A stretch of DNA of 62,563 bases from NCBI GenBank assembly GCA_000934665.2, contig JYFJ02002133.1, positions 1 to 62,563 on the forward strand, written 5' to 3'. The notes below the pieces were generated by a model. It was not told the origin of the DNA. It made no database searches and was given only the letters and a program-made list of their open reading frames with translations. This DNA comes from Catajapyx aquilonaris. Lineage: Eukaryota. Positions 471 through 48,441 of this stretch are shown in pieces (position 1 is the stretch's first letter; each line of letters begins with the position of its first letter). The position numbers and the translations under genes were made by a program.

Positions 471-749
<279 letters not shown>

Positions 750-4710: not shown

Positions 4711-5336
4711 GAACCAGGTGTGTCCATCCTATTATCAGATTGGGTGCCCCCGCCGGGATTCGAACCCGGACCACGGGCAACGTTACGTTGCCCGTATCCT
4801 CCCTGTTAGACCACAGGGGCCCACTCACGAGGACCACCGGTCCAAAAAGGGGCTTCACTCCATCGTCGGATTCCCCCTACAGGTTTAACTCTTTGAAAGG
4901 AGTGTATGGGACCTGTGGGGGGAATCAGGGCACAATTTGATAATTGGATGAGAGGCCACACCTGGTCAGTTTTTGGTTTGGGTTTTGTGGAAAAACTATG
5001 ACTGCCTTTGGGGTAAAGATGGGGGTCCACCGTCTGCTTTTTTTTAAGGTTGGAAGGGAGAGGTTGGATGGTTGGAAAAAGGTGCACTCCAATCACAAGC
5101 ACGGTAGGCTGGCTCCAGCCCGATGGTATCAGCCAGTTACAGGTGAGGAGGACAGGAGGAACCAGGTGTGTCCTATCCCAATTATCACAACATGCCCCCG
5201 CTGGCTCGAGATACAAGCTCTGCCCTGACTGATGACCTGAAGCTACCAACAGGCCATCGGCAGTACCAAAGCTTATTCCCTGTGAAATGGGTGTCAAATC
5301 AGGGTGGGACAGGTCATAAGGAATATCCACCAGGTC
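4711..5336. mobile_element. Composite inverted-repeat (MITE/foldback-like) structured element
   Basis: A ~40-bp motif ACCAGGTGTGkCC..ATCC.ATTATCA...TGCCC occurs at 4711-4750 (+), 4928-4967 (-) and 5159-5200 (+), with a degenerate copy at 5306-5336 (-). Contains internal hairpins and a tRNA-like cloverleaf. Confidence 0.5.
4745..4820 (-). ncRNA. tRNA-like cloverleaf (Glu/Asp/Gly-type scaffold) with non-canonical 11-nt palindromic anticodon loop; pseudo-tRNA or SINE-head-like
   Basis: Minus strand GCCCCTG TG GTCT AACAGGGA GGAT A CGGGC AACGTAACGTT GCCCG TGGT CCGGG TTCGAAT CCCGG CGGGGGC A. The 7-bp acceptor, D, anticodon and T stems all pair, and A-box and B-box (GGTTCGAATCC) are present. Confidence 0.7.
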
Positions 5337-9343: not shown

Positions 9344-10052
9344 CAAACTGACTCCTCATCCAGGGATAGAGAGGACTGGGCAACGCCGCCGCTGGGTTGG
9401 TGGTGGGTGGCTGTTGCTGTTGCTGCTGTTGTTGCTGCTGCTGTTGTTGCGACTGCTGGTGCTGCGGAGGGCCTTGCTGATGCGACACATTGACCACCTG
9501 AGGGTGCGCGGGGTGTTGCGGGGGACTCACATTGTTGTACATCATATGGTTGGCCCCCCCTGTATGGTTGGTGGCACCCATAGGGTGGTGGTTGGCCTGA
9601 TCCAGTCTGTGGGGGTTGCCAGCTGCAGCCCCGGGGCTTCCTGGCCCCGCTTGCTGCAGCTTGCAACTGGAATACTGCGACACTGGCGGATTGGCCTGCA
9701 CATGGCCGCCCATCGAGTTCACCTGGGATTGCGGCGAGGGAGGTCGCGGGTAGCCTTGACCGTCCACCATAGGGTTCAAGCCCGGTTGACCTCCCTGGCC
9801 GTAATAATTCACTGCGGCCGCGTTGCCCACACTCCGGATGTCCAGGCGATCGTAGGGCGGGAAGCGCGGGTAGGGCATGCCCTGGGCAGGTTGCCCCGGC
9901 ACGCCATAATGGTGGGGGATGGCTTGCCGCAGGTTGGGGTCACAGCTGGGGTCACTGGGCACTGCCGGGTTCACACCTTGACTCCCATAGTGGTCAGGCG
10001 TACCGTTCCGTAAGTCAGTCAAGTATGAGGAATTGGGGAAATACGAGCTCAT
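9344..10052 (-). CDS. Antp: Antennapedia coding exon 1 (N-terminus to hexapeptide)
   Basis: ORF 9300..10052 translates MSSYFPNSSY...YPRFPPYDRLDIR...QYSSCKLQ...poly-Q...PSPLYPWMRSQF. These are Antp-diagnostic motifs. The exon ends at a consensus donor G|GTGAGT (709 nt, phase 1). Confidence 0.96.
9411..9464 (-). repeat. opa (CAG/CAA) repeat encoding QHQQSQ13
   Basis: Mixed CAG/CAA codons just upstream of the hexapeptide. Confidence 0.9.
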
Positions 10053-10211
10053 GCTATTGTGGTTGGGGGTTATTGAGTATGACGGATCCAGCTCGACTTC
10101 TTTCTAAAACAACCAAGTCCGAGAAAAAGAGAAACGCGATAGTGTCGCTGTAGGAAATTGAGAAGAAGCACTGGGTCGTTCCACCAATAGAAACGCCTCT
10201 TGCATCCGCGC
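10053..10211 (-). other. Antp: Antp 5' UTR portion of the first coding exon, with two candidate acceptors (10211 and 10103)
   Basis: Minus strand CTAAT branch-like motif + ttgttattcttgttcttctcttttttattcccag| at 10212. A second tract tttctctttttctcggacttggttgttttag| ends at 10104. Confidence 0.75.
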
Positions 10212-11795
10212 CTGGGAATAAAAAAGAGAAGAACAAGAATAACAAATTAGTAGGTAGTCTATCACTCCACACAGTAGGCTAGACTAGGCATCATTTACTC
10301 CCCATGACCTGCCAATATGCATTTGGAACAAAACAAAAGGGCTGCCAAGCTGCCCTCTTTTACCTTTTCGCCACAGCGTGAAACCACGCGTTAAATTATC
10401 GGAGCTACGACAATGGCACGGTCCACCAACCAACCTCTTTTGCGACTCAAGAAGGACCACCAAATCATCTGCCAAGACGTACACTCACATGCACCTCTGA
10501 TAGCCAACTGTGTGTCTATTCCCTTCGGACCAGAACAGCCAGCAATTATTCTAGAGCCTCCTAGAGGAGAGGTCATTACGGTCGCATTAGAAGCCCTGAT
10601 TAACAGAAAAAGACGTCTTGAACGAATATCAAATTAGCCTTTCTTGCCTGGCCACGTAATGACAGTGCACCAGACATTTCACGTGCCGCCTGTTGGGAAG
10701 TCAAATGGACTCGTTTACATTCTTTCCGGATCAAACTCATTAGGGATGCTGCTGTTGGCTGCCCTCATCTCACTATAGCCTCTCCAAAATCTTACGCAAG
10801 CGACAGGTGTCGTCATTAAGTACTACTTGGCAGCACGTGTTCCGTCCCATTTGAAAGCCGCGCCAGCCGCCATCTTTGCTCCCCCCCTCGGCAAGGGTGA
10901 CCAAAAATACACTCCACACACGCTACTTTTCTAAGATAGGTGTCATCAAGGATGGTGGCAAAAAATTAATTAATAAAGCAGCACACCTTTGCTACAGGAA
11001 ACTACTCCCGCCGATAACAGCGAAGTAGTTAATAGCCGATTGCGGTCGCATCGAAAAGGGAGCGTCTCAGGAGAGCAATACATTGGAGTGTCGCTGAAAA
11101 AACCTTGCCAGCGCCCAATAAATAGATGGTGGTAGCCCCCCCACTCTCTTTCTCTCGGAGGCGATGCCAGCACTGAAATTGTCACACACACACACTAGGC
11201 ACACGCGTTCCCTGACAAGGTTCCTGCAGCCGCAGGCTTCTGAGTGGGTCCTGAGGGACTTCGTCATGGGACGATGCATGAAGCTATGCACAGTCGAGAG
11301 GGGTGTGTGTAGGGGGGTGGGGGTGCCTGTTTTTGGGGGTAGCTGGGTAGGGGGGAGCAAAAAGAGGGAGGTGTAGGCTTACATAGAGCAAGGCCGGCCT
11401 ACCTCCCAATTGAAACAGATGTTCAACACATTGGTCCAGCGCCCCCGCTCCACCCCTCCTAAGAATGGCTTTGGTCCTTTCAGAAAACCTTTTCAGTGTC
11501 GTTTGGGTGAAGCCAATCCTGGCTGAAGGGGAACGAGTGCCAATCATCCCCTCTCCATCCAGTTGCAACCCCCCATATTGCATATTGCACTCTAGGTAAT
11601 GATAGGCGGACCTCATTCATTCTGGCGCCTTGCCCACGGGGAAAAAGGGTAGGGTCATTATTCTCCCAAGACTGGGTGGTCACTACGAGATAACCCTGAG
11701 GGCGGTTAATTTGTGAATGAACTCATGAGGAGATTGATTCCTGCCTCGTGGCTTCCAACGTCTATTTAAAACATATACTACACACAATTATGGGG

Positions 11796-15330: not shown

Positions 15331-16775
15331 GGACATACAGGAAAAATCCGCTAAAGCAGATTTTAGGTTTTTTAAAACACTATTATGCAGATTTTTTCTG
15401 GTCAATCACCCGTTGATTCATAATGAGCCAGCAATATTTTCTGGTCTCGAATCTAATTTTTTGAACAAAGTGTTCAAGATTTGCTTTTAAAAATACTATA
15501 CATTTTAGCTCTGTAAGTCACACCTTCCCCTAGACACCATCTATAATTACTAGACCTTGCAGCAGCATTGATAGCACCGTAGGGGGGGACGGAGGCAGAT
15601 TTTTCATGCGGCAACAATGCGTGTCACAATCAATCACTGCTCCCCCGTCACGATTCTTTTTCCCGCTTTCCTACACATGAATCCATGTCCGTTCTCCTAC
15701 GCTACGGATTCATTCGGTTGGAAAAATGCAGCATAGGCAAAACGTTAAATTTGTGAGCAGAATTATTGCCTTCCCCACCCCCACCCCCCATCCCGCCATT
15801 TTAAAATGGTCATGGAAGGCACTTTTCAAACTATTGATTTCGCCCACCCCCGCAAAACTTGGCCTGCTTGCATTACTAATGTCAACACTTCCTTTCCNNN
15901 NAAGCTTTTAATAACACAGCACAATGTGCGTGAGAAAAACTCCAGCCGCTAGTAACAATGCACCCTCCGGTAATTACTCTCTATCTCACTCAACAATAGC
16001 AATTCTGACATGCTACCCGAGCCGGCTGGAAAATTACCATCGTCCTCTGAAAAGTCCAGGAAAAATAGGAACCATTTTTATCCCCTCACGGAACACTTTT
16101 TTAAATGTGTGGGGGAGCGGTAAGCAGCGCGGTCCTTAGGCGCGGAGAATACTCGAACTGCTTGGGGGAGAAGTGCTCGATGGAGTCGGCCTCTTACGGC
16201 CAAGATGTGGACTTGGTGGGGAAGTAAGGACGGTTTAGGAGGTGGGGTACGGACTACGGGGTGCAAATCCCAGGCAATCACTGCGGCGGTTAAGATATCG
16301 CTTGTGTTGCGAGGTCGTTACTGGAGGGGGGGAGGTGGAGGAGCTGGGAGATGGGGAGTATGGATAGAGCGGTCATCGATCCTCCGGCTCGGGTGGGCTG
16401 GGTGTTTTAGAAAGGGGCAGTCTAGGGTTGGTGGATTTGTTTTTTTTGGCGAGGGAAGAATTTTGGATATTTTTTTTGTGACACTAATTGTAGCGACTAA
16501 GAATGTCACGATGTTCACAAACCACGTTTTTTTCCCGAATTATAAAGTGCATAGTTGGTCAAAAATGTGTAGGACGTAATTCTGTTAACCACCACCGGTG
16601 GCACTGCCATTGCTACTAGTAGTACCAACCGAAAATAAACAGACTAAATTCAAAAATATTAGCTGCAAATATTAGTTTAATATCTTACCCCGTTATCAGC
16701 CTTTTTTCGGCTCTTTAGGGGGAATTTTTTGTTTTGTCTGGAACTCTTGCTTACATGTTTACATTTTGCTTTTTG

Positions 16776-27100: not shown

Positions 27101-27917
27101 TATCGCGGAACATTAGGCCGGTCTGATCGTTACAAGGAAGGAGCTTGTTATGGTCGTATATATATGACAAGTTAAGCTCAAGTGGGGGAAGTTCCAACAT
27201 GGCATGATGTAGGATTATCAGGCACGTCACGGTTGCAAACTGTCGACTTTTGAGAGAGACACTATTATTTTATGTGGACTGTGAAGATATCAACAGTGCG
27301 ATAATGTCAGGTACACGGAATCCGAATTTTTATACTAAAATTACAATGGGGGGGAAAAAGTTTGTCTTCTTAGTCTTATGTATACAGACACAAAGTTTCT
27401 TATGAGAGGTCCCTCCAGCAATAAATTTATTCCGGATGCTTCAAAATTTATTACCCGCGGTCAACCTAACAGTTTCCAGTTCGAAGGGGTTGTGAACAGA
27501 ATGTCTCGTGAATTGGCGGAGATTTAGGGAATTCGTTCGTATACCTTTTTGCCGCCAACTTTTCGCATGCGACTTTTGGGTCGTCTATTCGAGTTACGAT
27601 TTTCGTGCGTTAACGCCTGAGTTGCATATATCATAATGACGTTTTTTTAGAAACCTGGCTTCGGAAAAGTTTTATGAAGCGTAAGCCTAACAATAGGCTC
27701 ATATTTTACAAATGTATCCAAATGTCTTATTGATGGGGTGGTGAATAATAGTCCCAAACTTTTTTCTTATTTTCTTCAGTTGATTCCAAAAAATGTGATA
27801 GATGCTATGTTGCCACGTTGGATCACCCTGAGGCCACAGGGCTATACCACTTTATTTAGCTATCGTTGCATACGCCAAAATTGTGGTACACAATCATCAT
27901 CATTGTCATTGTTGTCA

Positions 27918-27920
<3 letters not shown>

Positions 27921-27962
<42 letters not shown>

Positions 27963-28243: not shown

Positions 28244-28318
<75 letters not shown>
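28244..28318. repeat. (AAT)25 microsatellite
   Basis: Perfect AAT run. Confidence 0.95.
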
Positions 28319-28319
<1 letters not shown>

Positions 28320-29271
28320 TATTTGTGTGTAGGGTCTAAGGCAAAAAATTACTCGCTCGTTATTAATTAGCGAATCCGCAGAATTAAATTCCAGGCACAA
28401 TCACGAAACAAGTGATGCAAGTGCATAACTACAGTGTTTCAGCCATTACGAAACAATGTTACGATTGCAATGTGGTCTAACCGGCTTCGGTCATATACAT
28501 ACAAGTTGGTAATAATGGCAAAAGTCCCATGCTGGTGACAATATAAATACATGCAAATGTGACAACCGTAAATATCACGAAGAGCCACATCCCTCTCACA
28601 CTCCCAGCTGCATATTGCACGAGCACCTCATAAATAACAGTTTGACTGAAATTAGCTAGAACACACCTGGGCACATGACCTGACCCCATGACCACTCTTA
28701 CCTTCACGTGAGAATCCTGCTTCCCCACATGTCCCCATCCACGTGACTTAGCCAGGGAGGCGATCATCATGAACTAGGTTCACGCATTTTTTATTATTAT
28801 AATAATTCCCATCCCTCCGCCCTCCGCCAGGTGTTATCCACACACCAGCTGACCAGTTCACGTGGCGGGAGGGCGGGGGTAAGACTCGCACTACACACGT
28901 GGTGTGGGTCACTCGAGGTCACCACCACTAACACTGTCCGTCTGCTGCTGACAAAACCTGCGGCTGGTCTCTCCCCGCCCCCCTTCGACAGTGTGCGCAA
29001 CAGGGCCAGCCTTTTCCCCCCCCTTACTAAGGGTTGGCCCCCACGCTTGTTTTTACCCGTCTGTCCCCGGTCCCTTCCGCCCTATCCGCTGCCGTCATTT
29101 GGCAATTTCAAATCGCGCGCTTCAACAACCAGCGCCATCTACCAACCCAGAAAACTTCCTTTTCCCCAGCTGAGAAATAACACACGATTCAGCGAATCCT
29201 GCATGAACTCGGGAAGTGCAGATAAAAGGCCCGCGACGGTGGAATTGACAGCGATAAATCTTGGTCAGAGG

Positions 29272-29274
<3 letters not shown>

Positions 29275-29338
<64 letters not shown>
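29275..29338. repeat. (GA)n microsatellite / GAGA-factor-type tract
   Basis: About 32 GA units with one substitution, inside a CpG-rich island. Confidence 0.92.
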
Positions 29339-32300
29339 GCCTGCAGGAGAAGTGCGTGGAATGGTATTCACACGACCGCGGTCCCGGAATTTTCATCGCG
29401 CCCCAGTTAACTACAATTTTCTCAAGTTATCACAAGCTCCAGCAGTCTTCCTCCTGCCTTTTGCCTTTCAAGCAAAAGAATTCGATATAAATTGCCTGTT
29501 GGAGGGTAGGGTGGAATGAAAAAGGTTGAAGGGGATGGAGAGAGGAGTTTTTTTTTTTCAACGCGCGCAATTCGAATTAATCCACCCCCTCACACACAAG
29601 CGCTTTAATTGAACTTTCACGCTTTTCTGCGATTGCCAAGCTTTCCCCCACCCGCGTTTTTTTTTTTCTAATGGATTTCCATTAAATGAAAATGCCAGGG
29701 CAGAGTAACATGTTGCTAGAGATTTGGGTCCTGCTCCTGCATAATGCCAAATTAGGTAGCCTCGAGGAAAGGGAACATTCGTCTTGTGATTCTGATTCCC
29801 CTCTACCCTCTAGACTTCCATTTGTTATTATTGACGGTGCCGACAAAATTAAACCCGGTTCACTCAAACGGAACGAGAGATGACGCTGCCGTTTGTTATG
29901 TCACATGTGTCATGGACTTACAATAAGAGTCATGCACACGTCCGTGACTTGATGCCACATACATCTTCCATTACGTTGACAAACGCTAGGTGTATTGTCC
30001 TGTGTGATCTGAACACACTTGGTGAAAAACAAATCCGCATAAATCTCCAGACAATTAGTTCACCCAAACAATGACGTTTTTTAAGAGCGAATTATAGCTC
30101 GTCATAAATCAGCACAAGTAAACTAGCAGCGCCGACATGAAATAAATGCTTATACCATGCGATCAGTGTTTCAACAACTGGAATGGAAGTGAGTAAAAAT
30201 TTACCACCCGGCTGAAGGTCACTTACATGTTCCACTTGACCACTTCATTTCAGTAGTGTAAAAAACCTGCCAACGACTTTCGCGCCAACCATGACTTGTC
30301 ACGAAGGGTCATATTCCACCGGCTCATGTTATCAACGCTTCCCACGAATTATTGCGTCAGGAAACACACAACCGGTTGCAAATCTTGGCGCACTTTTGCC
30401 ATAAAAACACTTATCGTTAGTCTACAAAAAATGCGATAATCGGTGAATTACTTTCAATTACTAACCCGGAATTGGACGAACGGGAATTAACGTGCATTTA
30501 TCAGCCATCTATTTCATTCATTATCTCTCTTTACCTGAAAAATAGCCAGCTAAAAAAGTCACCAATCATATTCGATTTGCACACGGCCCGCTGTTAGGAG
30601 AGACATCACCGGATTTTGCACGAACTACTGTCCGCATCATTTTGTTCCGGACTGTATCCCACCATGGAATAAACCGATTATGTAGAAAACCTTCCCTTCT
30701 CCCCCCCCCANCCCCCCATAGGAATATGCATGAGGCATCACATGCCGCAAATTCAAATTATGAATTAAGGGGATGAAAGTACAGGGAGTTGGTGCACCGG
30801 ATGGTGTGCAACTCGATTATAAGTTTTTACCACATTCCTACCTAAAACCTGACCGACGTGGGTTGGAAATCCTGCCAAAATTCCGGATGCCCACTTGGGG
30901 CCTCGCAACAAGCCGGTGAATAATGTCGTATGGAGACCTCCAGTCAAGTTGATGCGACACAGACCCGAGGCCGCCATTTGCTGCTCTTGGCCAGCCGGAT
31001 GCAAGCCATAATAAATCCCTAACCCCCCCGCTTCCTTCCCTCCCCTACCCTATTCCCCAACCTTCACAGTTACATGCTGGACTTTGTCTAGTTTTGCAGG
31101 CCACTAATTTCATTACATGCCTCTGTGTAAGATCAAAATCCTGCCGACTTCACAAGTGGTACCTCCCAAGGCGATCGTAAAATTGTCAGAAGTGTACTGT
31201 TGACCCGCATCATTAACACCCTTAATTAGCTCCTTTTTTATGTTCTTAAGCTGTGACCAATCTCTAACCAATGATTATCCGAAGAGCAATAAAAAGGCAT
31301 TTGTATGCTGATCTACAACAACCCCTTTCCTATTTACGAGCGCGGGCGCCCGTGACAAGCAGCCCCTTGCCTGCACCAGCCCACTTGATATACCACTTCA
31401 TGATGGTTATTACGGCCATAAAATCTGAGTTAAGTGAAAATATGGTGTGGCTGAGGTCAGGGCAAATTACCAAGGGACAAGTCGGGGAGGACTACTTGAG
31501 CGCCCGTTGATACACATGCTATTATCACCTCCTGTGACGATAACGGCGCTTTTATTGCCCGGGCCCCGTGCTCGCTCATCTCGCCAAAGGCAGGCGGGCT
31601 AGACGAAGCATGGGGCCCCCCCGAACCCCCCACTTTTGGAACAACTTTCCTTGGGATGTTTCCAGCGCTACTTGTTCCTATTTTGTAAATGACTCACGCC
31701 TTGCGCGAACGACAGCGACTACGGGTCTGTGAAATGTATGGGCCGCTTATGCCTCCGAACCACCCAGATAGACGCATTGGCCATTTAATTAATAATTTAA
31801 TAATAAAACGTATGTCCGTTGTTTAATGACCGTAATACCGCTAAAACTAACCGCAGAGTAGCATTGACATTTTGATAACAAGCCATTAGTTCAGGCTGGG
31901 TCCGCGCCTACTTGAAGACAATAGAAGTGGCTGGCTGTTGGTCACCATAATCACCCTACTCGGTCATATTCGCCTGCTGCATATAGGCGGATACAAAACA
32001 ATTGCGAAGGAAAACACGCAACGACTTCCGTCCGAAATAAGTGTGGCTTATCAACGCCCGAGTTTTTGGGAGGCCTGAAACTACCACGTAGCAGACATTT
32101 CTCACCCGGTATGTCACGGGACGAATGTTTTTAGAGGTCCTGCGTGAGGCACTCCATGTGGAAACATGCGATGGATACGATTGGCATAAAATGAGAAGCC
32201 TCCCAAACTCCATCATGTGCGTCAGTCCGCGTTTTCATCGATTACACCGTCCAACTAAAACCCAGCACCATTGCACTAAATTACGATTAGACTACCCGCG

Positions 32301-36723: not shown

Positions 36724-39697
36724 TACCCCCCATCTACATATGCTTATTGGAAACAGCTAAATATGCATATTGGACAATCTTGTATAGATGCGATTCAACA
36801 ACAACAAGAATTGAGGTAATTAATATATGCTCAGTTGACATCATGCTATTCAAAGCATCGTTCATATTATGAATCTACAGAGCTAAGTACAGGGTGACTC
36901 AGTGACTATTCCCTTAGCGACAGACCTGATTAAAACACAAGCAACAATATTTTGTTATCGCCCAAAACCGGTGAGGTCACAAGAAGGTTGAGGGGACCGC
37001 ATCCGGAGATATCCGGGCGAGTAAGAGGGGAAGTTCCTTACTCATGGTGGCCTTCTGGGAAATGGCGTCAGAGAAACAAGGCGAGGGAAAGAGGGAAAAC
37101 AAGATAGATCAGTCTTTTCTGCCAGCCAGGGCGCTCTCCGGGTAATCGGCCATGCAGTTCAAGTCAGATCGGTCACCAGAGGGAAAGATCGACCCTGAAT
37201 TGAGTCTAGTTAACTAAATTGCTCCATGAGGTCGCCAGACTGACACTCGGATATTTTTCTTCATTTCTGATGGGCCAGCTATGACATTTGTAGGGAACCT
37301 ATCTTGCGGATTCATCTTTGCTCCCATGTGGGGACTTGCAGGAAGGAAGGGAGGGGAGGAAGAAGAAGAAGAAGAAAGAAAAAAATGAGGAAACAAAGAA
37401 GCGGCAAAGAAGATTAGACAAGAGGCGAGGGAGGTACGTGGGGAATCACAACTAGCAACTTCTGCCGACTTTTCCGCTACGATATGGTTGCACGGTTCAG
37501 GATTTCCTTGCAAAACGTCGTCCGGAGGCGATACTATCATCTTGAAGTGGTGGGGATTACTGTTTCTCCCATGCAAAATTTCCAGCTATGTTAATCAATT
37601 TTTTGTTTGGAAAACTCACGCTGAAACTCTCTAACATTTCGTTATCGTTTTTTTTTGTTCCACACGGAAAAGCCGACAGCCCAGGGCGGACTAAAGGTGA
37701 GAATTACAGTCTCCAATTTGGATGATGTAAGTCTCATTCCTGTTTGCCCCCTCGTGTCTTGAAAAACCGCTCAATCAGTGCAGGTACAAATTTTTTCCAG
37801 CTTGCGAAAAACCCTTGCGTGGGAGTGGACCCAAAGGACTGGTCTTCAACATCAATTTTCACTTCATTTTTCATTATTGCACCCCATTTTTACAAGTTAG
37901 TTACGCTTGACCGCACTTTTTCGAGGGTTAAGATTGCATAATGCACATTTAATTCTAGTGTTTGTTACGCGGTATGTCTAATGACAGACGTTAGAAGCCT
38001 TAAGAAATAGCTCACGGTTTTTGAGATAACGTGTCTGACATCGCCAAGCGTGTTCGACATGAATCATAATAATTCACCACCTCTTAAACAATAGGTAAGA
38101 GCACCGGGTTAAAAAAAAGAGCTTAAGCGGTGTTTTCAAGACACATTGCTTGCCTCTAAAACCTTAATGCTATTACCTGGCAAAAGTGATAAAAAACAAG
38201 TGGGTGCAGTTGCTAGTCTATGACTCCCCACATTTAATTTTCAGTGAGTTTGGGCTAAACGGCAATGGCCAAAACTGACAAGCAGAGCTGGGCAAGTAAC
38301 CTGGTTAATGTGCCGCATCTTTCCTAATGAGAAAACCACACGCGCTGATGCACCGCGCCAGTTTGGAGGATCGCCAGATATTTTTCTCACCTGTTACCTC
38401 CATCTCAACAACAAATAATTTTCACCGCATTTTATTCAAAGGGCGATGAATCGGGGAAAAATTTGCACGTGGATATTTCTGAATTTTTAGCAAATAAAAA
38501 TGGTGTCTTGCGACATATTTAATCAGAAATCTCAGACGTTATTAAGGCAAGGGGAGCACAATTTGGGCGCGTTAATTTTTTAGAACGTTTCCGCTGGGGA
38601 CAATTGAAGGGCATTACTGTAACCCAAATTTTTTTGCAAAAAAAACAACAAAAAATTACTCGCACGTTAGTGTTTTTGCAACATATTTTGGTACATGTCC
38701 GAATAGTTTTTTTAGCACAGGATGTCATAGCCTTCATAGACCGGTTCGATGGTCAATCAAGTGGTCAAGCCGGTTACATGACGCAGGACGTCGGAGGGTA
38801 GGGAACAAAATGGCCCCAAGTTATTTTCATCTCTCCCCTTGAGCTCTTCCTTCCTGGTGTAGTCAACTATTCCAAACCCATGCAGCTACAATAGACCATA
38901 CCGGACGGACAAACGCTAATTTACAGCTATCTCGGGATTCACTAGCACAAATGCACCGGCATAGAAACGATGATAAATGCGGAGAAATATATGCGGACTG
39001 CTAATAAAAGTGAGCGGACCAAAATGTGGTTGGAAATTATTCGCCTGGTCGTGAATGCTTATTTTTCACTTTCATTTCATTCAGTGTTTATGTGCGGAAA
39101 TATTTTTTATGCAAACAAGGTCACGTGGATTACCCGTCATTGTGGGTAACCAGAACCACGTGATTGTGTTGATAATATTCCAAAAATACATTTTTTTTTC
39201 CAAATTCAGTGTGTATGCACAACACATGATCTTCCAGGATATATGTTATTGTTTCACCACAAACCACAACCGGTTTCATCCTCAAACCTCAAAAATGCCT
39301 GGTAGGCCCAAACTTAGAATTCCATGTGAGTCCATAACTCTCGTTTTTTTTTTTCGTCTCCCCCCTTGAACTTGCAAATCCCCCACCTGCCAGGCACGTA
39401 ACCGACGTGCAGAGCTTCTTAAACATTTCGCATGTAATACTGGAATTGGCTGTTTGCGCTACTCGTTTGTCACTAAAAAGACCAGATTGGAGTATCCACA
39501 AGACTAGCTGGTGGCCAAGGCACCTTTCGGCTCCATAACTCTCTCCTAGCACATGGGGCTGGGCGTGGGAGGAGGTTGGTAGTAGTGGGGAGGGCAAGGG
39601 GGTTACACGTCGCCAGGGTCAAGCCCATCTATTGAGGTAAATTATCTGTACACCGGCCCTATTACTACAGAAAAAAAACGATTTGAGCGACACCTAC

Positions 39698-40500
39698 CTT
39701 GTTCCTTAGTGGACGAAAGGTATACTGATTGTTTCCTTTTTTTGGGGTTTACAATTTTTTTTTATTTATCCACAGCTTCCCAGAGATTTATGGACGTTTC
39801 ATCTTACGACATATACTGAGGAGTTTTAATTTGGGGTGCGGATGCGGCGGGCCGGCATGCCTCTGCCGGATTAACGAGTAATCCCATTCGCACTTTCGGA
39901 GGCCAGCTGGACCGTCCGGGTTGGCACCGAGCACCGACACTGCCGAAAATTCACGCCCGACTCTCACCGGCGCCGATGACCCGACCCGCGTGTACTGGTC
40001 GTAAGTGCCCATTCACACCCGGGGGCGGGTAGACGTGACGATCCTATCGAGCAGGGCATGTAAAACTCGGGGTTTGAGAGGGTTACGCCAGGCTCATACC
40101 CCCACAAATTATAGTAATAATTTGATAGAGTGTTGCACACCATTCAGACTTCAAAAAAATTCACAACCGCACTAAAAAGAATATTGATAGCAAGGCACCC
40201 CGGGTGGCGCGGTTTCAACAATTGGAAGACAGTGTGGCCAGTTCTTTTACATAAAAAAATGGGTGTTATTGTTGGGTGTGTATATGTGTGTGTTGAGCAC
40301 ACCCACCGATGCAGTGTGAGACTAGGGCGGACTGGGCCGACTCTGGGGCTCCGGGAGAGGAGGAGGATCGAGAAGACATGCGGCGGCCCGGCCCAGAGTC
40401 GGCGCAGCGCAAAATCATCTCTCTCTCTCTCTCCCTCTCTCACCCACCCTTCTCTCCCTCTCTATCCCCCTTCCTTTTCCCGCCTTTCATCACAGCTCTA
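39698..40500 (-). promoter_or_regulatory. CpG-rich island with GA-rich tract and downstream donor; candidate Antp promoter / non-coding first exon
   Basis: High CpG density at 39830-40050 and 40320-40410, CT/GA tract at 40418-40480, and minus-strand donor AAG|GTAGGT at 39697. No clean Inr+DPE found. Confidence 0.3.
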
Positions 40501-43155
40501 TTTGCTGCTCTGACAACTTGGTGATATATACCACAAGGTGTTTCTATCACCCACCACCCACTAGATGTACTTTTCCTACCTTTGTTTTTTTTTCTCGTTT
40601 TTTTAAGTGGCTGCACACTGCTGTATGGTCCACTCACAAAATGTGTGAGACTGGGGTGTCAATATGGGCGCGTGTCTAAATTCAGGTCGTACACAGTGGG
40701 CGCGAAGTGTTGCCAAAAGAGTTTATTTTTGTGGCGTGGTAGACGAACCGATTCGGTGACTTTTGTCGCGTTAGTATATACATGCAGGTAGCAGGTGTGT
40801 ATATTTCGTTTATTTTCAACAAGTTGCCATGATATATTTTGCAATAGGCCTATACACACGTTATGTTACAATATTTCAATTTTTAATTCAATAATGCGCT
40901 AAAATTATTTAGTGTCTCAATAGTCAGCAGTTGTGAACTAACTTTTTGGATCTGATCGCCATTCTGAATCATCAGACCATACCGACATGGCTATAGTAAC
41001 CCAAGTATTTAATCCGCATTAAATACTACAAAGGCCTACTGGAGGGTGTTCAATAAAACACTGCGTATAGTGTCGCAAAATAAGTCAACAATTTTAGGCG
41101 CTTTTTACAAACTCACAAGAAATTTAACGAATGTGCATATTAGAATATTCTATCTGTACCCACTTTAATGTCAATCGTAATCAGCCCTTAAAATAGACCT
41201 CCACTTGCTCACTGTATGAACATGTACTTCTTTAAAACAATGTTGTATCCCAGCCCTGTCTACTCCTAATGGCCAAAAAGCCCAACGGGGTAAAATAAAA
41301 TAAAAATAAAAATATTCAAGTTGTTGAGCCTAATGCATATTTTTATAATTATTGCACGAGTTACTTAAATATTACGATAAAATCATTTGACAAAAAAATT
41401 CAAGCATCACAGAGTGCATATTTACTATTCGTCATGAAATACAGTTTGTGTATATAGTATTAGGTCCAAAATGATATATGGTGAATTGTTGCAAAAGATG
41501 ACCGGGCATCTTTAGAAGTCAATGAGTAATCCATAATCAAAATAATTTGGTATTTTATGATGACTTTCTTAGTTTATAATATATCAGTTACATCAGTCTC
41601 TTAATCATGGCCCGGTGGGGATAACGCACTTGATGTGCTGAAACCACCAATAACCAATAACAGTCCCCTAAAGCGAAATATTAGAAAAAAAAGTTATTAA
41701 ATAAAAGATAATGCAATCTTCCAACAATCAAATCTGGAACTCATTCCAACCCATTTCAGGTTTCGAATTTATTATTGCTGCTCAATTACAAGTGTGAATA
41801 CAAATGAAAATTACATACCCAATTAATCATAAATTGCTCAATTTCATAATTTTTATTCCCCATAATAAATCCCTCGAAGCATTTGTTGCTCATAAATCAA
41901 AGAACAACATTGCCACGACATAATCAATTTAACCCCCCCCCCCAATATCCACCCCAATAAAAATTACTACGGTATACTGCTCATCTTAAAACCCCAATAA
42001 TAACCACAACCGGCAATAATTGCCGAATAAAATAATAAAACAATTTCTTCCCTCCCCCGCTGGAATAGTGTAACGCAACCGTGATCGGAATAAGCGGGCC
42101 CTTGTGGGACAGGTAGAATAGATAACTTAATTACCAGGTGAAGGATAATGAATAACAGTGAAAACTGTAATTTCCGCTGATGAAATGAAGTAGTAGGCCG
42201 GGGCCTCGGCCGTCCCGACCTCAGTACCCGAGCCAAACATTGTGGGGGCCTTGATTTGTAGCCCGGGACGTCCCTAAGCCCAGTCTGCAGGCTACATCCA
42301 ACCGCTTTACGACTCAATAATGCCCACCCCTGCCTGCCACCTGACTACTCACCGGAATCGCTCATCCCAATTCCTACATCTTAGTATGCGTATACTCATC
42401 AGTCAAGGGAAAAATAAAGTGTGGCTACACCTGGTGAGGAATAAAAATTACCCGGTCGATACCATACGAAATGAAAATTGTAGACGCGTTTTGCTGTTTC
42501 TTTTTTTTCCCCCATGCTTCTATATACACCCCTCTGTTAGATATCGGAGATTTTGTGCCGGAGTCGTGCAATATTAATCCACATGCCGCAGACGCACCCA
42601 AAACTAACTGAGTCCTAATAACCTGCAAGCCCTCTTCTTCCCAGGCATTGAGAATATGGATGAGTATTGACTGTTCGGATTGTAATCACATCTGGGGATC
42701 GATGGGTGGTGGAATTTTATTCCCGAGCGACTCACACGTTGGGAAGCATATGGATAGCATTTACTAGATGTGTCATATGGATAATAAACAAATTTCAAAT
42801 TGTACAATAATGTAGCCTATACTGTGAAAACAACCGTCAGCACTCGCTCAAGGTGAAGTCTTTATGCATGAAATAACAATTATAATCACCTAAAACTATT
42901 AAAATGCTATAATTCACGCATCCAGGCAGCAGTATATTATAAGGCAGTTTAAAATCGCCATATCAATTGACACTTTTGTACTACACTCCAGATTGGTGTA
43001 ATCCTACAAGCGTAATGTAAATCAATGGCAGTTTCATCATGATCGATTAATGAAATTTGCTTTCTGATACGGTGTGGAGAGTTTATCTTTGCCCATCTAG
43101 TATTCATAGGCAGCGGCGCAAAATCCTCAGTGGAAAAACACAGCATATCGCTTAC

Positions 43156-43235
43156 CAGCCAGTCGATATGTGTCTATGTGCTGAAGTCATAAACAGGAAG
43201 TGATTCTTACCTGCAAAGAAGAAAGACAAATTTAG

Positions 43236-43236
<1 letters not shown>
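43156..43236 (-). other. Recursive splice site (ratchet point) with 55-nt RS-exon
   Basis: Minus strand cctaaatttgtctttcttctttgCAG|GTAAGA (junction 43211/43210), followed 55 nt later by CTG|GTAAGC (43155). Same strand as Antp. Confidence 0.7.

Positions 43237-43304
<68 letters not shown>
43237..43304. repeat. (AAT)n microsatellite abutting the ratchet point
   Basis: About 22 AAT units. Confidence 0.95.
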
Positions 43305-43307
<3 letters not shown>

Positions 43308-46300
43308 CCACACCTATAGGGCAATATATAGGCACATGCAAGCTTCAACATTACGAAATAGGCGGGTAACTGAACGGAGCTCATACTTCATTCACCACTG
43401 TGGCCCGTACATAAAATTGACATTTATGTTCCTGCATATTTGCAGCGACTTCCCCCCCCCCCCCCCNGGTTCAAATAAATGCACCACAAGAGCCATAAAA
43501 TACCTTGAAAAACACAACATGTCCGCACGATTTGTACAACATTTTCATTTAACACCTTTTACACTCCATCAAAGTTCATCAAACCAGTTTAGCCACCTAT
43601 TACCCTGGTTATTTAAGATATCGCTACCGGTACTTGCTCTGCGGTACAAAACTCGAAAACCGGTTAGTCATAGTCTTGAGCTGATCCCAAGCGCATAGAT
43701 ATGAGGCGATATATCCTCTGGGATGCCTCTCAGACGAGTTGTGTTCAATCAGATCGTTCCCCAACTTTGGGCCCCAAAGTCAATTTGAGGAAACTCTATA
43801 TGAGAAGCACACCAAAATGGGGGGATGGAGAGGAGGGGAGGGGGAGGGGGAGGAAGGAAAAGACGTACTATCCTACGATAGCCCAATACGCCTTAGGGAA
43901 TAGCCCTAAGGACTTAACAAACATGGAGTAGGGTGGAGACGTGGTGTGTTGATAGGGACTCCCAACGCCAATATTTCAGAACATTTCTCGCCACATATTT
44001 AGTTTTATCCCACCAATTTACAAGTCGTCGTGCACATTCTATGCGATTTATTCTGTTGGAAAGCAGAGGTAGAAAAAGATCTCCCCTCAAAACATACCCA
44101 TGTAGATTTTCAGTAAGACGATGTGATTTATAGTTTGTGCCCGACGCTTTTTAGACCATACAGTGGTACCATATGCTGCTGTCGAACCCCCAAAAAATGA
44201 CAAATGACTACATAGGCCTACAGTTAATTATTATATACAAGATTATAATAATATGGTGAATATGGTTCATATTATGCGCGCCGGAGGGAATTGTTGTGAT
44301 GGTGTGTATAGCTTCTTTGTTGAGATTGCTTTCGGTGTAGTTGGTGCAGGTAGCCGGGTCCGCCCATCCCTTTGGGAGAATGAAGATTGATTGATTGATT
44401 CAGATCCTTACCCTACTAATTTTATGAAGATTGTAACTGTCGTTTTCGAGCGGCAATGCATCTTTTCATTCGAAGGGCCCAAATTAATGGTACCAAGAGT
44501 GTCGCTCTATTGCGTATTGGGTGGTCAATCCTTGTGTTCCAAATGTAATTTGTTTTAAATAAGAGCAATTATATGGACACACTCAAATAAATATAGTATG
44601 GTGCTGTACTTTGATGTTAGCTTGTTCAACTTTAGAAACCAGAGATTTGAAGTCAGTAGCATTAAACTTGACATTGGTCAGAGGTCATGACGGTCAGTAA
44701 GAACCGGGGGTTGGACAGTCCATTACTTAGGTAAATGCATGTCTATTTTTTATACACCAAAATCATATCCATTTTATGCCTACATCTCTGAAATTCGTTT
44801 GTTTTGTTACGGATAGCAACCGAAATGTGTTGTTATATACACTGTATCTATACAGGCCTACGTACTGTAAGTTATCTTCCGCATTTACCAATAATGTTGT
44901 AAATTGTAGAATGAACGTGGAAAACTTTTCAAAATGCGGGATCGGCCTAATAAACTAATACAAATAAAATAATTATTGGAATTAATATACCTGTTAGACA
45001 AATATCCCGTTGAAGTGAAAACACGCACAACCGGTAATCCTGGTAATAACATTTACCAACTACAAAATTCATGACATAAGCAATTAGTAAATGGAGGGTG
45101 ACACAGGTTAGTACAGTTCCCCCTTCCCCTCCTTTTTGAGCGAGCACAAGTGGAAGGTCTGCACGCCCTTCCACGACTCATGATCCACGATGACAAAGTG
45201 CATCGTTCTTCGTTGGACTAAAATCTCACAATACATTTCCCCCAGAATGAAAATAATCGAGATCAGTCACTCTGTCTGATACCTCGCCCCTCCTTTCAGA
45301 CATTTTGGGGACTGTGGAGCAGACGAGCAAACCGACCAACCCGGGCTTCTAGATGGGGGACTGCTGATGCTGGGGGAGGCCCAGAGAACCCTCGTTTTTA
45401 GGGGGGAGGCTCATGGCAGCCAGCTTCCTTTCTCTGCATTCTACCCTTCGGAGATGATACATGCTGGAGGCTGATTCACAGCTAGCTCCCCTCCCCCTTA
45501 TCCCCTATTCCTCCCCACCCTCCCTCACAGCAATCCAAAGCAGTCCAAACCTACATGGCTCTGAATTTCTGGCTCGAGCAATCATTTCCCCAAGCCTATG
45601 GGATACATGCTCAGTCTTCCGGTCCCCTTCCCCTTATCTATACAGTGTCTTGACTCATTCAGTCCAACTGTATCAACATGTTCCTAACAATTATTGCTCA
45701 TCCAGTTCTCCTATTACAGGGCAGGAGGTGCAGGCCTACGCTATCAGGACAAACAAGACATGACGAATCGGTTGCCTACATGCCCAGGGACTAATATCCA
45801 GCCGAAGAGGATTGTTGGAACTGATAAACTGGATCGAATGTTGTGAAGTATATATCGAACTCCCTGTCATCACTATAATATGTGGAACTAGTCTTAGAAA
45901 TTCAAATGTAAGGTATGAATGTTAAGCGTATTTTGTAATTCACCTTGACATTTTTCAGTTCATCTTATTTTTGGCATTTTCAGGCAATAAAATCACGTTG
46001 GTGCATAATTTATGTCCAATCCTGTCATGCAATGCGGCATATATTTACTATTGTCAATCACAGCATATAAAAACTGAATAATACATCCATTCAAAATATG
46101 TTACATGTCACCTAAGTATATAAATTAATTATGTAAAGAAAAGCCAGTAATCAAGCAATGGTATGAAACTATTAATAACGGCATTAAAGCATTCTAATAG
46201 TATTTAAAATATTACACTCAAAACTCCGAAAAAGTACTGCGATTGGCAATTTAATATCCTTCAAAAAATTGGTAGGATATTCTTTGGTTGCTTTATACGG

Positions 46301-47720
46301 TAAACAACTTGATATGAAAAGTCAAAAGAGCATCTCACAACATGCTAGGCTTTTACAGTTTTACTTGCATCATTTTCGCTTCTAATTCAATTAATGGCAC
46401 TTCAATCGCTATGCCGCTAATACTATTTCCGATTAATTAATTCATATACAGTATATAAATGAGTGCAAAATCTGATGAAATTACAGTAGAAACTGGATTA
46501 TTTGACCCACGAATCATCAGAAAATCTTATTAACTTTGAGATAATAATGCATTGGCGTCCACCATTGATACCGGTATAATCTTATATAGGCACAATCGGA
46601 AATCCCGCTTCAAGTTTGGATTTAAATATGAATATATAAAATATTCGCATTTCATTAAGCATTGAATAATCTTGAAATTGAGCGGGAAAGGAAGGGACAT
46701 TGAATATGATTAATGAAATGACAGCGAACTGAAGATTAATGTCCGTGAACTGGAATGGAATTACGCCGTTTGAATGAAGATTCATACGAGATCTAGAATT
46801 TAAAATGTATGATGCTCATCAGGAAATACGTAGTCTACACTTAGATATTTTGCCGACCTTTCCAAAATAAGTGACAATGCATTTGATAAAATTTTACCCT
46901 GCTGCAAAAAGTTATATTATGTAAAGCAAAAAGGGCAGTGCTTTAATGGAGAAGGTGATAAACACATGGAAAATAATATAACCCTTGTAATTATTAATAA
47001 ACCCGACTACAACAAATTAACTCATGTAATGCTATATAGTATATACCATACACGTTGCCATATACGTTGCATATTAGACCATTTTATTTCAGGTCATGTA
47101 TTGAACATAAATGCAGCTTGTGGATATTATCTATAGGGTGGATACTATACAAGTAAAGCTTTAAAGCTCTAAAAACTCAGTGTATTCACTCATGTACCTA
47201 TAATCCCGCTTCATCAGATATTGTATGCTATGGATTCAAAGTACATTCGTGAAATTAAGTGTTGGAACTTTCAAACGACAGCATCTATATTACAGGTTGT
47301 TGATTAAGTGTCATCATTTTCATGCCACATGAAATAAAGGATCTTGTCGTTCATTATACTCTGAAAGCCCATACTGCATAATAATTAGACAGCTTGTGAA
47401 TGGCCGTTTTATTTTGACAATAAGACAGCATGGCTTTTGAAGCTATATCTTGACCTATACGATCCCACCAAAATAATCAGGTAAAATTCTATAATCTACT
47501 TGTAATGTATATAACAAAAGCAGCATAACTATTGTATTTTTCTTCACTAAGAGCCATTTATTTTGCAATGTTACTAACGTTTCAAGTAATTAGATGCCAT
47601 TAAAATTTGAAACACCCATGTACAGTACAGTACATAACAATTATATTGTATACCTTAATTTTGGCCGGTTATTGTAACGTATATATCATACATTAAGTGT
47701 GGTAAATGGGGGCATTAGTA

Positions 47721-48026
47721 CAGTCAGCCCCCGGTTATCCGCGGTAATTAGTTCTGAACTGTATATAATGTGTTTAACATATCCATCCTATATGATAAAT
47801 TTAATTTACAAATTATTACATCGATAAACGCGAATCAAGATAAAATAGAATTGTTATAATAATACAGTAGTACAACACTAATGAAATATACATACATACG
47901 GTGCATTTTAATTTACGAATTATACACGTTTACACATACAACAAGTGTATTGATACTGTACTGTACTTCACCTTTCATATTTTCAAACCGAGGATAACGA
48001 TAGCGGGTATCCGGGAGCCCGCATTG
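47721..48026. mobile_element. Degenerate Tc1/mariner-pogo (Tigger-like) MITE
   Basis: TA|CAGTCAGCCCCCGGTTATCCGC at the left end and GCGGGTATCCGGGAGCCCGCATTG|TA at the right (imperfect TIRs, TA flanks). AT-rich interior. Confidence 0.5.
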
Positions 48027-48135
48027 TATACCATATCTCACAGAATTGTGTCCACACGCGCTATTTTTCCTGCAAATCCCCCAGTACTTTTCCACAAGAT
48101 ATAGGCTCAAAAGTGTCTACCCTATGTTTCTCATG

Positions 48136-48441
48136 TAGCCATCCATCAAGTACGTCAAGCAGTAGGGGGTTGGTGGCAGCGTGACGGACCGTGACTTAGG
48201 GGAAGGGGAATGTCTCTGCCTACCGTGACGTTACGATCAATATAACCACAATTTAAAAAGTGACATGCGGATATTCATATTGAGCAGTTAACAAGTAAGT
48301 GATAAATATTACCTGGACAGTATGATGGGGCAAACTAGGCAACTTTTTGGAGGACAGTATGTTCCACTGTATCTGTGCGTGACATAACCGGGGTGGGGTC
48401 AAAAAGCCGAAAATCACCGTGACGCACTTAATGGATTGCCC
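48136..48441. mobile_element. Non-autonomous DNA transposon (MITE) with imperfect TIRs
   Basis: gccatccatcaagtacgtca at left vs tgacgcacttaatggattgc at right. Internal repeated (c)cgtgac motifs and GGGG tracts. Confidence 0.6.

What the first reader, a model, noticed from the sequence alone, without database searches (positions are those of the whole stretch)
43150..43236. Recursive-splicing ratchet point with a 55-nt cryptic RS-exon in the Antp 5' region
Seen in sequence: on the Antp (minus) strand a strong 3' splice site (tttgtctttcttctttgCAG) is directly followed by a near-consensus 5' splice site (GTAAGA). A second donor (CTG|GTAAGC) lies 55 nt downstream. It is the only AG|GT site in the window where both halves are this strong. 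Established: long Drosophila Hox introns (Ubx, Antp) are removed recursively at AG|GT ratchet points defined by short cryptic RS-exons of about this size, and Ubx microexons also start with GTAAG. Inference: this arthropod processes a primary transcript of more than 43 kb recursively, starting from a distal Antp promoter or from Ubx. That would extend Hox recursive splicing to this lineage. The RS-exon contains an ATG, so its inclusion would add an upstream ORF to the Antp leader.
Basis: partly seen in the sequence, partly recalled or inferred. Interest (0 to 1): 0.8.

Follow-up and report, generated by a model that had tools for sequence, protein, structure and literature searches.

The report
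Candidate recursive splice site upstream of Antp
A short sequence 33 kb upstream of the Antennapedia coding exons looks just like the recursive splice sites that fruit flies use to remove very long introns in steps, and it is far stronger than chance predicts, but no RNA or cross-species data could be obtained to show it is used.

Summary
On the Antp (minus) strand, tttgtctttcttctttgCAG|GTAAGA sits at 43211/43210. A second donor, CTG|GTAAGC, ends a 55-nt segment (43210-43156) that contains an ATG.

It is the clear outlier among 404 AG|GT sites on both strands. It scores 15.5 bits on a home-made splice model, against 9.1 for the next site. None of 1,700 dinucleotide shuffles reached that score. 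Chance expectation is 0.002 to 0.12 per window, depending on the null, and the +55 donor multiplies that by about 0.03.

Every sequence-level feature reported for Drosophila ratchet points is met:
- a U-rich tract
- TT at -5/-6
- an RS-exon of about 50 nt
- a ratchet donor at least as strong as the RS-exon donor

The functional criteria could not be tested. No sequencing run was listed, no genome is held, and no related genomic DNA was found. So sense transcription, junction reads and conservation all remain open.

Points against: a perfect (ATT)22 microsatellite abuts the site, and strong splice-like motifs are strand-symmetric in this window.

Verdict: a credible but unproven ratchet point (about 45%), against a chance or low-complexity by-product (about 40%). 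If real, it is a new member of a known kind.

The parts
43211..43236 (-). 3' splice-site half. It has a branch-point-like CTAAA (43235-43231, candidate branch A at about -22), a U-rich pyrimidine tract (15 of 17 pyrimidines at -20..-4), TT at -5/-6, and CAG. There is no AG between the branch-like site and the CAG.
   Evidence: sequence. (15/17 pyrimidines, best of 22 YAG|GTRAGT-like sites). (11.7 bits, joint top of 6,771 AG dinucleotides on both strands).
43205..43210 (-). The ratchet donor GTAAGA. It would be regenerated as a 5' splice site once an upstream exon is joined at 43210.
   Evidence: (intronic part 3.8 bits; 81 of 6,788 GT sites score as high). (in situ CAG|GTAAGA scores 7.3 bits, rank 5 of 6,787).
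43156..43210 (-). Putative 55-nt cryptic RS-exon, with an ATG at 43190-43188.
   Evidence: (if included, a uORF of 58 codons via acceptor 10211 or 11 codons via 10103; out of frame with the Antp ATG). The size fits the '~50 nt' given in PMC8605326.
43150..43155 (-). RS-exon donor: CTG|GTAAGC, with the first intron base at 43155.
   Evidence: (4.7 bits, rank 49 of 6,787, slightly above the real Antp exon-1 donor at 4.5 bits, rank 59). (a donor this good lies 25-100 nt downstream of 2.9% of positions).
43237..43304 (.). Perfect (AAT/ATT) microsatellite of 22.7 units. It abuts the branch-point region on the upstream side of the minus strand.
   Evidence: 100% matches, score 136..
10211..10236 (-). 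Strong candidate acceptor cttctcttttttattcccag|GCGCGG, 159 nt upstream of the Antp ATG (first exon base 10211). It is the likely partner for a donor at 43210 or 43155. The intron segment would be 32.9-33.0 kb.
   Evidence: sequence. (16/17 pyrimidines). (11.0 bits, third of 6,771 AGs). Its use is inferred, not shown.
9344..10052 (-). First Antp coding exon (MSSYF...YPWMRSQFG), with donor TTG|GTGAGT at 9343.
   Evidence: (96 Antp relatives at E<=1e-10).
471..727 (-). Antp homeobox exon ([21 protein letters not shown]...[13 protein letters not shown]) through the stop codon. The acceptor is ttcattgcag|AAAGG.

Best explanation
The element is a Drosophila-type intronic recursive splice site on the sense strand of Antp. 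It consists of a ratchet point (a strong 3' splice site fused to GTAAGA) plus a 55-nt cryptic RS-exon closed by a second donor.

Proposed mechanism:
1. A transcript starts further upstream, most likely at a distal Antp leader exon or promoter that has not been located. A Ubx read-through is less likely.
2. The 55-nt segment is recognised by exon definition.
3. The upstream exon is joined at 43210, which rebuilds a 5' splice site at the junction (exon|GTAAGA).
4. That site outcompetes CTG|GTAAGC and is spliced to the strong acceptor at 10211. This removes the remaining 33 kb and leaves no trace in the mRNA.
5. Occasional use of the second donor would insert a 55-nt leader exon carrying a uORF.

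What is shown: the sequence anatomy and its statistical rarity. What is inferred: transcription across the site, use of the splice sites, and the choice of partners.
For: - The motif is present exactly as described.
- It is the single outlier among 404 AG|GT sites: 15.5 bits against 9.1 for the next.
- 0 of 1,700 shuffles reach its score. Chance expectation is 0.002 to 0.12 per window, times about 0.03 for the second donor.
- It has TT at -5/-6, as in 196 of 197 fly ratchet points, and a prominent pyrimidine tract (Duff preprint passages).
- The RS-exon size fits '~50 nt', and the ratchet donor is no weaker than the RS-exon donor: 7.3 against 4.7 bits in situ, 3.8 against 3.2 for the intronic part.
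- It is on the Antp strand, in 52 kb without any Pfam-recognisable coding sequence. Of 132 ORFs, 128 had no hit at E<=0.01; 4 had weak hits below Pfam's cut-offs, in low-complexity translations.
- It lies 33 kb upstream of the third-strongest acceptor-like site in the window, which sits just before the Antp ATG. That segment length is within the fly range of 2.6-63.6 kb.
- Fly Antp itself has four ratchet points, and most fly introns over 40 kb are recursive (PMC6110457 abstract).
- The minus-strand T>A skew is similar on both sides of the site (+0.022 and +0.028) and in the known Antp intron (+0.036). This is weak support.
Against: - There is no transcript, junction, lariat or conservation evidence of any kind, and no upstream exon or promoter was located.
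- A perfect 22-unit microsatellite abuts the site. The pyrimidine tract may be decayed low-complexity sequence rather than a selected signal.
- Strong acceptor-like and donor-like motifs are strand-symmetric here: 12 of the top 25 and 48 of the top 100 acceptors, and 15 of the top 30 donors, are on the minus strand. So there is no sign of sense-strand enrichment.
- The one certain acceptor in the window scores only 2.1 bits, rank 325. My model is therefore not validated for this organism.
- There is only one such site in at least 52 kb, and the next candidates (48724, 38176) are ordinary: 165 of 1,500 shuffles reach 9.1 bits.
- Position +6 is A, not the T of the GTAAGT consensus as I recall it.
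- The G>C skew seen upstream is absent from the known intron. It is also opposite to the invertebrate pattern described in PMC5786239.
- The weight model was written from recalled preferences after I had seen the site.
Confidence: 0.45

Rival explanations
1. It is a chance juxtaposition in non-coding Hox DNA. A T-rich, low-complexity tract beside an (ATT)n microsatellite happens to end in CAG and to be followed by GTAAGA, and another GTAAG happens to lie 55 nt on. It is either not transcribed in sense or not used.
For: - The microsatellite lies directly adjacent, and the tract has a CTT-repeat flavour.
- Equally strong acceptor-like tracts occur on the plus strand, for example 27780(+) at 11.7 bits. 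Splice-like motifs are strand-symmetric.
- The crude null gives 0.07-0.12 per window, so many such sites are expected across a very large scan.
- No independent support could be obtained.
Against: - The full composite is rare under every null: 0 of 1,700 shuffles, a semi-empirical expectation of 0.002, and a further factor of about 0.03 for the second donor.
- It lies on the sense strand of a gene that is recursively spliced in flies.
- Even a chance-born site this strong would probably be recognised by the spliceosome if the region is transcribed in sense.
Confidence: 0.4
2. It is an ordinary or alternatively included 55-nt leader exon, either of Antp or of an independent sense-strand non-coding transcript. 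Its GTAAGA start would then be incidental, or would make it an expressed RS-exon like the Ubx microexons. The product would be an mRNA isoform with an extra uORF rather than a traceless ratchet.
For: - The acceptor, the 55-nt body and the donor all score at or above the real Antp sites in this window.
- Fewer than 50 expressed RS-exons exist in flies, including Ubx m1/m2 at 51 nt (PMC8605326).
- The uATG would open a uORF of 58 or 11 codons.
Against: - GTRAG directly after an acceptor is very unlikely unless it is functional: 81 of 6,788 GT sites score as high.
- The ratchet donor is no weaker than the exon donor, which in flies favours skipping.
- There is no transcript evidence.
Confidence: 0.1
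3. It is part of a retroposon or other repeat inserted on the plus strand, with (AAT)n as its 3' tail. The splice-like motif would then be the antisense of a repeat end and would be present in many copies genome-wide.
For: On the plus strand the motif lies immediately 5' of a perfect (AAT)22 run, an arrangement I recall from some LINE/SINE tails. That recollection comes from no call.
Against: - No target-site duplication or second copy was found in the window.
- No reverse-transcriptase or other transposon domain was found among 132 ORFs in 10.3-62.5 kb.
- The idea could not be tested genome-wide because no genome is held.
Confidence: 0.05

Closest known systems
Intronic ratchet points of Drosophila melanogaster Antp (four sites) and other long fly introns (Duff et al. 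preprint 10.1101/006163; Pai et al. PMC6110457)
   Same: - Juxtaposed 3'/5' splice sites around AG|GT.
- A prominent U-rich tract with TT at -5/-6.
- The same gene, the same strand, and a location in the long 5' region.
- A prospective 33-kb segment, inside the fly range of 2.6-63.6 kb.
   Different: - No junction, sawtooth, lariat or conservation evidence here.
- The organism is a distant arthropod. Its Antp exon is at most 64% identical to anything in the protein collection, and the nearest named relatives are mayflies and a springtail.
- Only one candidate, against four in fly Antp.
- Position +6 is A.
- A microsatellite abuts it, whereas fly ratchet points sit in conserved islands.
Cryptic RS-exons at fly ratchet points (Joseph & Lai, PMC8605326; Joseph et al. 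2018 was not held)
   Same: - A short exon of about 50 nt, closed by a downstream donor.
- The ratchet donor is no weaker than the RS-exon donor.
- The exon content is non-coding.
   Different: - The two donors are close in strength on their intronic parts (3.8 against 3.2 bits).
- The true ratchet donor depends on the unknown upstream exon end.
- No mutagenesis or reporter data exist.
Ubx microexons mI/mII (expressed RS-exons, 51 nt)
   Same: A short exon in a Hox gene whose 5' end regenerates a donor after splicing.
   Different: - The Ubx microexons are coding, in frame, ultraconserved and included in mRNA isoforms.
- This one lies in the leader, is 55 nt, would add a uORF, and its inclusion is unknown.
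Predicted recursive site in the 230-kb intron of locust NPF1 (PMC8892266)
   Same: A motif-predicted recursive site in a non-drosophilid arthropod: a branch point, a T/C tract and AG|GT.
   Different: The locust site has U2AF65 RNA-immunoprecipitation support. This site has no experimental support.
Ubx/Antp bicistronic read-through transcripts (PMC2938723)
   Same: They would provide sense transcription across the whole Ubx-Antp interval, and would need removal of a very long spacer.
   Different: - They were reported in crustaceans, myriapods and an onychophoran, and were not detected in Tribolium.
- No Ubx sequence lies in this window.
- No recursive site has been described for them in the passages I read.

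Membership tests
Drosophila-type intronic recursive splice site (ratchet point) | A 3' splice site directly fused to a 5' splice site around AG|GT | tested here: met
   tttgcag|gtaaga at 43211/43210. Top of 404 AG|GT sites. 0 of 1,700 shuffles reach its score.
Drosophila-type intronic recursive splice site (ratchet point) | A prominent pyrimidine tract with TT at -5/-6 (196 of 197 fly sites) | tested here: met
   15 of 17 pyrimidines. Positions -5, -6 and -7 are all T. The criterion comes from the Duff preprint passages.
Drosophila-type intronic recursive splice site (ratchet point) | A downstream donor that defines a short (~50 nt) cryptic RS-exon | tested here: met
   CTG|GTAAGC gives 55 nt. 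It ranks 49 of 6,787 donors. Chance of such a donor 25-100 nt downstream is 2.9%. The criterion comes from PMC8605326.
Drosophila-type intronic recursive splice site (ratchet point) | The ratchet donor is generally stronger than the RS-exon donor | tested here: inconclusive
   In situ 7.3 against 4.7 bits; intronic parts 3.8 against 3.2 bits. The real -3..-1 bases come from an unknown upstream exon, and the model is home-made.
Drosophila-type intronic recursive splice site (ratchet point) | Lies on the sense strand inside a long (over 11 kb) transcribed intron | not testable with these tools
   It is on the same strand as Antp and 33 kb upstream of a strong acceptor. No upstream exon is known and no RNA run was listed. 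The strand skew is only weakly suggestive.
Drosophila-type intronic recursive splice site (ratchet point) | The AG|GT core is evolutionarily conserved relative to its flanks | not testable with these tools
   No genome is held. The metagenome scans found nothing. No collection of arthropod genomes was available.
Drosophila-type intronic recursive splice site (ratchet point) | RNA evidence: junction reads into the site, a sawtooth coverage pattern, recursive lariats | not testable with these tools
Expressed RS-exon (Ubx mI/mII type) | The exon is present in a share of mature mRNAs | not testable with these tools
   No transcript data.
Expressed RS-exon (Ubx mI/mII type) | The exon starts with a functional donor sequence | tested here: met
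   GTAAGA at 43210-43205. This shows the sequence only; function was not tested.

The most novel reading that the evidence does not exclude
Recursive splicing of the Antp leader is ancient rather than a drosophilid speciality. This distant arthropod would use a single ratchet point with a 55-nt RS-exon to remove a leader intron of more than 50 kb in steps. The same site might also let Ubx read-through transcripts be spliced across the whole Ubx-Antp spacer, with regulated inclusion of the RS-exon adding a uORF that tunes Antp translation.
Probability: 0.12. Interest if true: 0.7.

Novelty: new member of a known kind. Interest (0 to 1): 0.42.

Why it matters
In the library I searched, ratchet points in arthropods outside Drosophila appear in one paper only, the locust NPF1 study. 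None concerns a Hox gene outside flies.

A working ratchet point in Antp of a distant arthropod would show that stepwise removal of long Hox introns is old. It would also suggest that this removal is linked to the unusually long 5' regions of these genes.

It would give a precise, mutable handle on Antp processing: one AG|GT, one RS-exon and one uATG. If it is not used, the case is a useful warning that a motif this rare can still arise beside a microsatellite.

Tried and rejected
- **RNA evidence.** The look-up of sequencing runs on 38211-48210, kind rna, listed none. This says nothing about expression.
- **Whole genome.** None is held, so copy number and paralogous clusters could not be checked.
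- **Related DNA.** The metagenome scan with the Antp exon protein gave 617 pattern matches, none confirmed. An exact 30-nt pattern across the site gave 0 matches.
- **Rfam.** At gathering and at E<=0.5 it found only a tRNA at 4745-4820(-), plus a below-threshold mascRNA-menRNA match (E 0.15) on the same bases. No Hox miRNA or other RNA family lies near the site.
- **Pfam.** On 132 ORFs of at least 75 aa in 10.3-62.5 kb, 128 had no hit at E<=0.01. The other 4 had only weak hits below Pfam's cut-offs, in low-complexity translations. So there is no gene or transposon protein around the site.
- **Second homeobox (Ubx).** None in the window.
- **Retroposon-tail idea.** No target-site duplication or second copy was found. 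Not excluded.
- **Strand-composition skew as a proxy for sense transcription.** The sign is consistent for T>A, but the effect is small. The G>C component is absent from the known intron and runs against the invertebrate pattern in PMC5786239. I judged it inconclusive.
- **Inr+DPE pattern search for a promoter.** There were three matches at about chance level, and none lies on the minus strand upstream of the site.
- **Weaker minus-strand AG|GT sites at 48724 and 38176.** Their donors are poor (GTGCGG, GTAATA) and their scores are within the shuffle range.
- **Papers not held.** Burnette et al. 2005 and Joseph et al. 2018. What I say of them is recalled or taken second-hand from PMC8605326.
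- **A badly designed paper search** returned noise.
Full report
**What is there**

On the minus strand the window reads cctaaatttgtctttcttctttgcag|gtaagaatcacttcctgtttatgacttcagcacatagacacatatcgactggctg|gtaagc. The first boundary is 43211/43210 and the second is 43156/43155. The enclosed segment is 55 nt and holds an ATG at 43190-43188. Immediately upstream on this strand lies a perfect (ATT) microsatellite of 22.7 units at 43237-43304. The coordinates and letters in the finding are correct.

**Gene context**

The window carries Antp on the minus strand.
- The first coding exon, from ATG 10052 to 9344, ends in YPWMRSQFG with donor TTG|GTGAGT.
- The homeobox exon runs 727-471 and follows an 8.6-kb intron.
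- The N-terminal exon finds 96 Antp relatives at E<=1e-10. The best is an unnamed protein at 64% identity.
- The nearest named ones are mayflies (Ephemera 58% over 58% of the query, Cloeon 48%) and a springtail (Allacma 49%).

So this is an arthropod, probably a hexapod or close to hexapods, with no close relative in that collection.

Upstream of the coding exon, 10.3-62.5 kb contains:
- no second homeobox;
- no Pfam-recognisable ORF. Of 132 ORFs of at least 75 aa, 128 had no hit at E<=0.01, and 4 had only weak, sub-threshold hits in low-complexity translations;
- no Rfam family.

A strong acceptor, cttctcttttttattcccag|GCGCGG, with first exon base 10211, lies 159 nt before the ATG. This suggests the coding exon is preceded by an intron and by at least one leader exon that has not been located.

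**Is it more than chance?**

Of 404 AG|GT sites on both strands, 22 are YAG|GT with at least 5 of 6 matches to GTRAGT. Among those, this site has 15 of 17 pyrimidines upstream and the next best has 11.

Three nulls were tried.
- A crude count gives 0.12 expected per window on both strands: 9 YAGGTRAG cores times 1.3% of 17-nt windows with at least 15 pyrimidines. Using the rate among windows that precede YAG (24 of 3,248), I calculate about 0.07 from the counts.
- A home-made position-weight model (U-rich tract, C/T at -3, GTRAGT) scores the site at 15.5 bits, against 9.1 and 7.3 for the next two.
- No dinucleotide shuffle of the window reaches that score: 0 of 200 and 0 of 1,500. The mean of the maxima is 6.8, sd 1.8, highest 14.96.
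- Pairing the real upstream contexts of all AGs with the real downstream contexts of all GTs at random predicts 0.002 such sites per window.

The second donor adds a further factor. A donor at least as good as CTG|GTAAGC lies 25-100 nt downstream of 2.9% of positions (13 of 404 AG|GT sites).

The weight values are rough recollections of metazoan splice preferences. I wrote them after I had seen the site, so the lower estimates may be optimistic. Even so, the composite is rare under every null.

**Comparison with known ratchet points**

From passages of the Duff et al. preprint:
- Ratchet points resemble fused 3' and 5' splice sites with an especially prominent pyrimidine tract.
- 196 of 197 have TT at -5/-6.
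- Recursive introns are 11-133 kb, and the segments removed are 2.6-63.6 kb.
- Fly Antp has four ratchet points, and the sites are conserved among Drosophila species.

From passages of Joseph and Lai (PMC8605326):
- A ratchet point needs a short cryptic RS-exon (~50 nt) with its own donor.
- The ratchet donor is generally the stronger of the two.
- The Ubx microexons (51 nt) are expressed RS-exons.

From the abstract of Pai et al. (PMC6110457): most fly introns over 40 kb contain recursive sites.

The present element meets each sequence criterion.
- It has a fused AG|GT.
- It has 15 of 17 pyrimidines, with T at -5, -6 and -7.
- Its RS-exon is 55 nt.
- Its ratchet donor scores 7.3 against 4.7 bits in situ, or 3.8 against 3.2 on the intronic bases only.
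- It has a branch-like CTAAA about 22 nt upstream, with no intervening AG.
- The prospective segment to 10211 is 33 kb.

**What speaks against it**

- Nothing functional could be tested. No sequencing run was listed for the region and the single search was then spent. No genome is held. Neither metagenome scan found related DNA. Sense transcription, junctions, lariats and conservation, which are the criteria that actually define a ratchet point, remain open.
- Strong acceptor-like and donor-like motifs show no sense-strand excess in this window. 12 of the top 25 and 48 of the top 100 acceptor halves, and 15 of the top 30 donors, are on the minus strand. A plus-strand tract at 27780 equals the site's acceptor score.
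- The only certain acceptor in the window, that of the homeobox exon, scores just 2.1 bits, rank 325 of 6,771. A strong tract is therefore not needed here, and my model is unvalidated for this species.
- The site abuts a perfect microsatellite, and its tract has a CTT-repeat flavour. Low-complexity decay is a ready non-functional origin. Fly ratchet points, by contrast, sit in conserved islands.
- It is the only such site in at least 52 kb. The next candidates have poor donors and scores that 165 of 1,500 shuffles reach.

**Indirect look at transcription**

After masking simple repeats, the minus strand has more T than A. (T-A)/(T+A) is +0.036 in the known Antp intron, +0.022 in 10.3-43.15 kb and +0.028 in 43.24-62.56 kb. 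Nothing changes at the site.

PMC5786239 (passages) states that T generally exceeds A on the coding strand of transcribed regions, so the sign fits sense transcription on both sides. However, the effect is small. The accompanying G>C skew (+0.036 and +0.044) is absent from the known intron (+0.005), and it runs against the C-excess that the same paper gives for invertebrates. I count this as weak at best.

**Source of the transcript**

- Ubx/Antp bicistronic transcripts are documented in crustaceans, myriapods and an onychophoran, but were not detected in Tribolium (PMC2938723 passages).
- The nearest named relatives here are hexapods, so a distal Antp promoter is the likelier source.
- Neither option could be located. 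An Inr+DPE pattern search gave three chance-level matches, none on the minus strand upstream of the site.

**Weighing**

If the region is transcribed in sense, a site with this anatomy would very likely be recognised. The acceptor is joint top of all 6,771 AGs in the window, and both donors score at or above the real Antp donor. The open question is therefore mostly whether sense transcription crosses 43.2 kb, and whether this lineage uses recursive sites at all.

I guess a prior of roughly one in ten that a selected recursive site exists in this interval. That is my own figure, not a computed one. Set against it is a composite that chance produces in at most a few windows per thousand. On that basis I put a real recursive site at about 45% and a chance or low-complexity by-product at about 40%. 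An ordinary or expressed leader exon gets about 10%, and a repeat-derived motif about 5%.

**Novelty**

If real, it is a new member of a known kind. In the library searched, ratchet points in arthropods outside Drosophila appear only in the locust NPF1 paper. That site is a motif prediction supported by U2AF65 RNA immunoprecipitation (PMC8892266). No paper links recursive splicing to a Hox gene outside flies.

The uORF remark holds only if the exon is included. The uATG would open 58 codons via 10211, ending 17 nt before the Antp ATG, or 11 codons via 10103.

Noticed in passing
window 4743-4820 (-): A tRNA-Leu (anticodon TAA) gene lies inside the 8.6-kb Antp intron between the first coding exon and the homeobox exon, on the same strand as Antp. 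Rfam gives 47.9 bits and ARAGORN agrees. It could be a true tRNA gene or a tRNA-derived repeat.
   Followed up: partly
window 10211 (-) and 10103 (-): There are two candidate acceptors ahead of the Antp ATG. The one at 10211 is the third-strongest acceptor-like site of 6,771 AGs in the window (11.0 bits). The one at 10103 is weak (0.2 bits).
   Followed up: partly
window 27893-27956 and 28244-28320; 43237-43304; about 29300-29400: The Antp upstream region holds several long, near-perfect microsatellites: ATT/AAT runs on both strands that form inverted pairs, and a GA/RE-coding run. It holds no transposon protein domains across 52 kb.
   Followed up: partly
window 5964, 13691, 15898-15901, 22936, 30711, 43467, 58144: There are isolated N bases (10 in all) inside otherwise continuous sequence. 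One lies 231 nt upstream of the candidate site on the minus strand. They look like ambiguous consensus calls rather than gaps.
   Followed up: no
window 10300-62563: The minus strand shows a persistent G>C (+0.04) and T>A (+0.02 to +0.03) skew over the whole 52-kb upstream region. 19 of 26 2-kb bins are positive for each skew. The G>C part is absent from the known Antp intron.
   Followed up: partly
window 9400-9480 (-): The Antp N-terminal exon carries a run of about 14 glutamines (QQSQQQQQQQQQQQQ) just before the YPWM motif.
   Followed up: no
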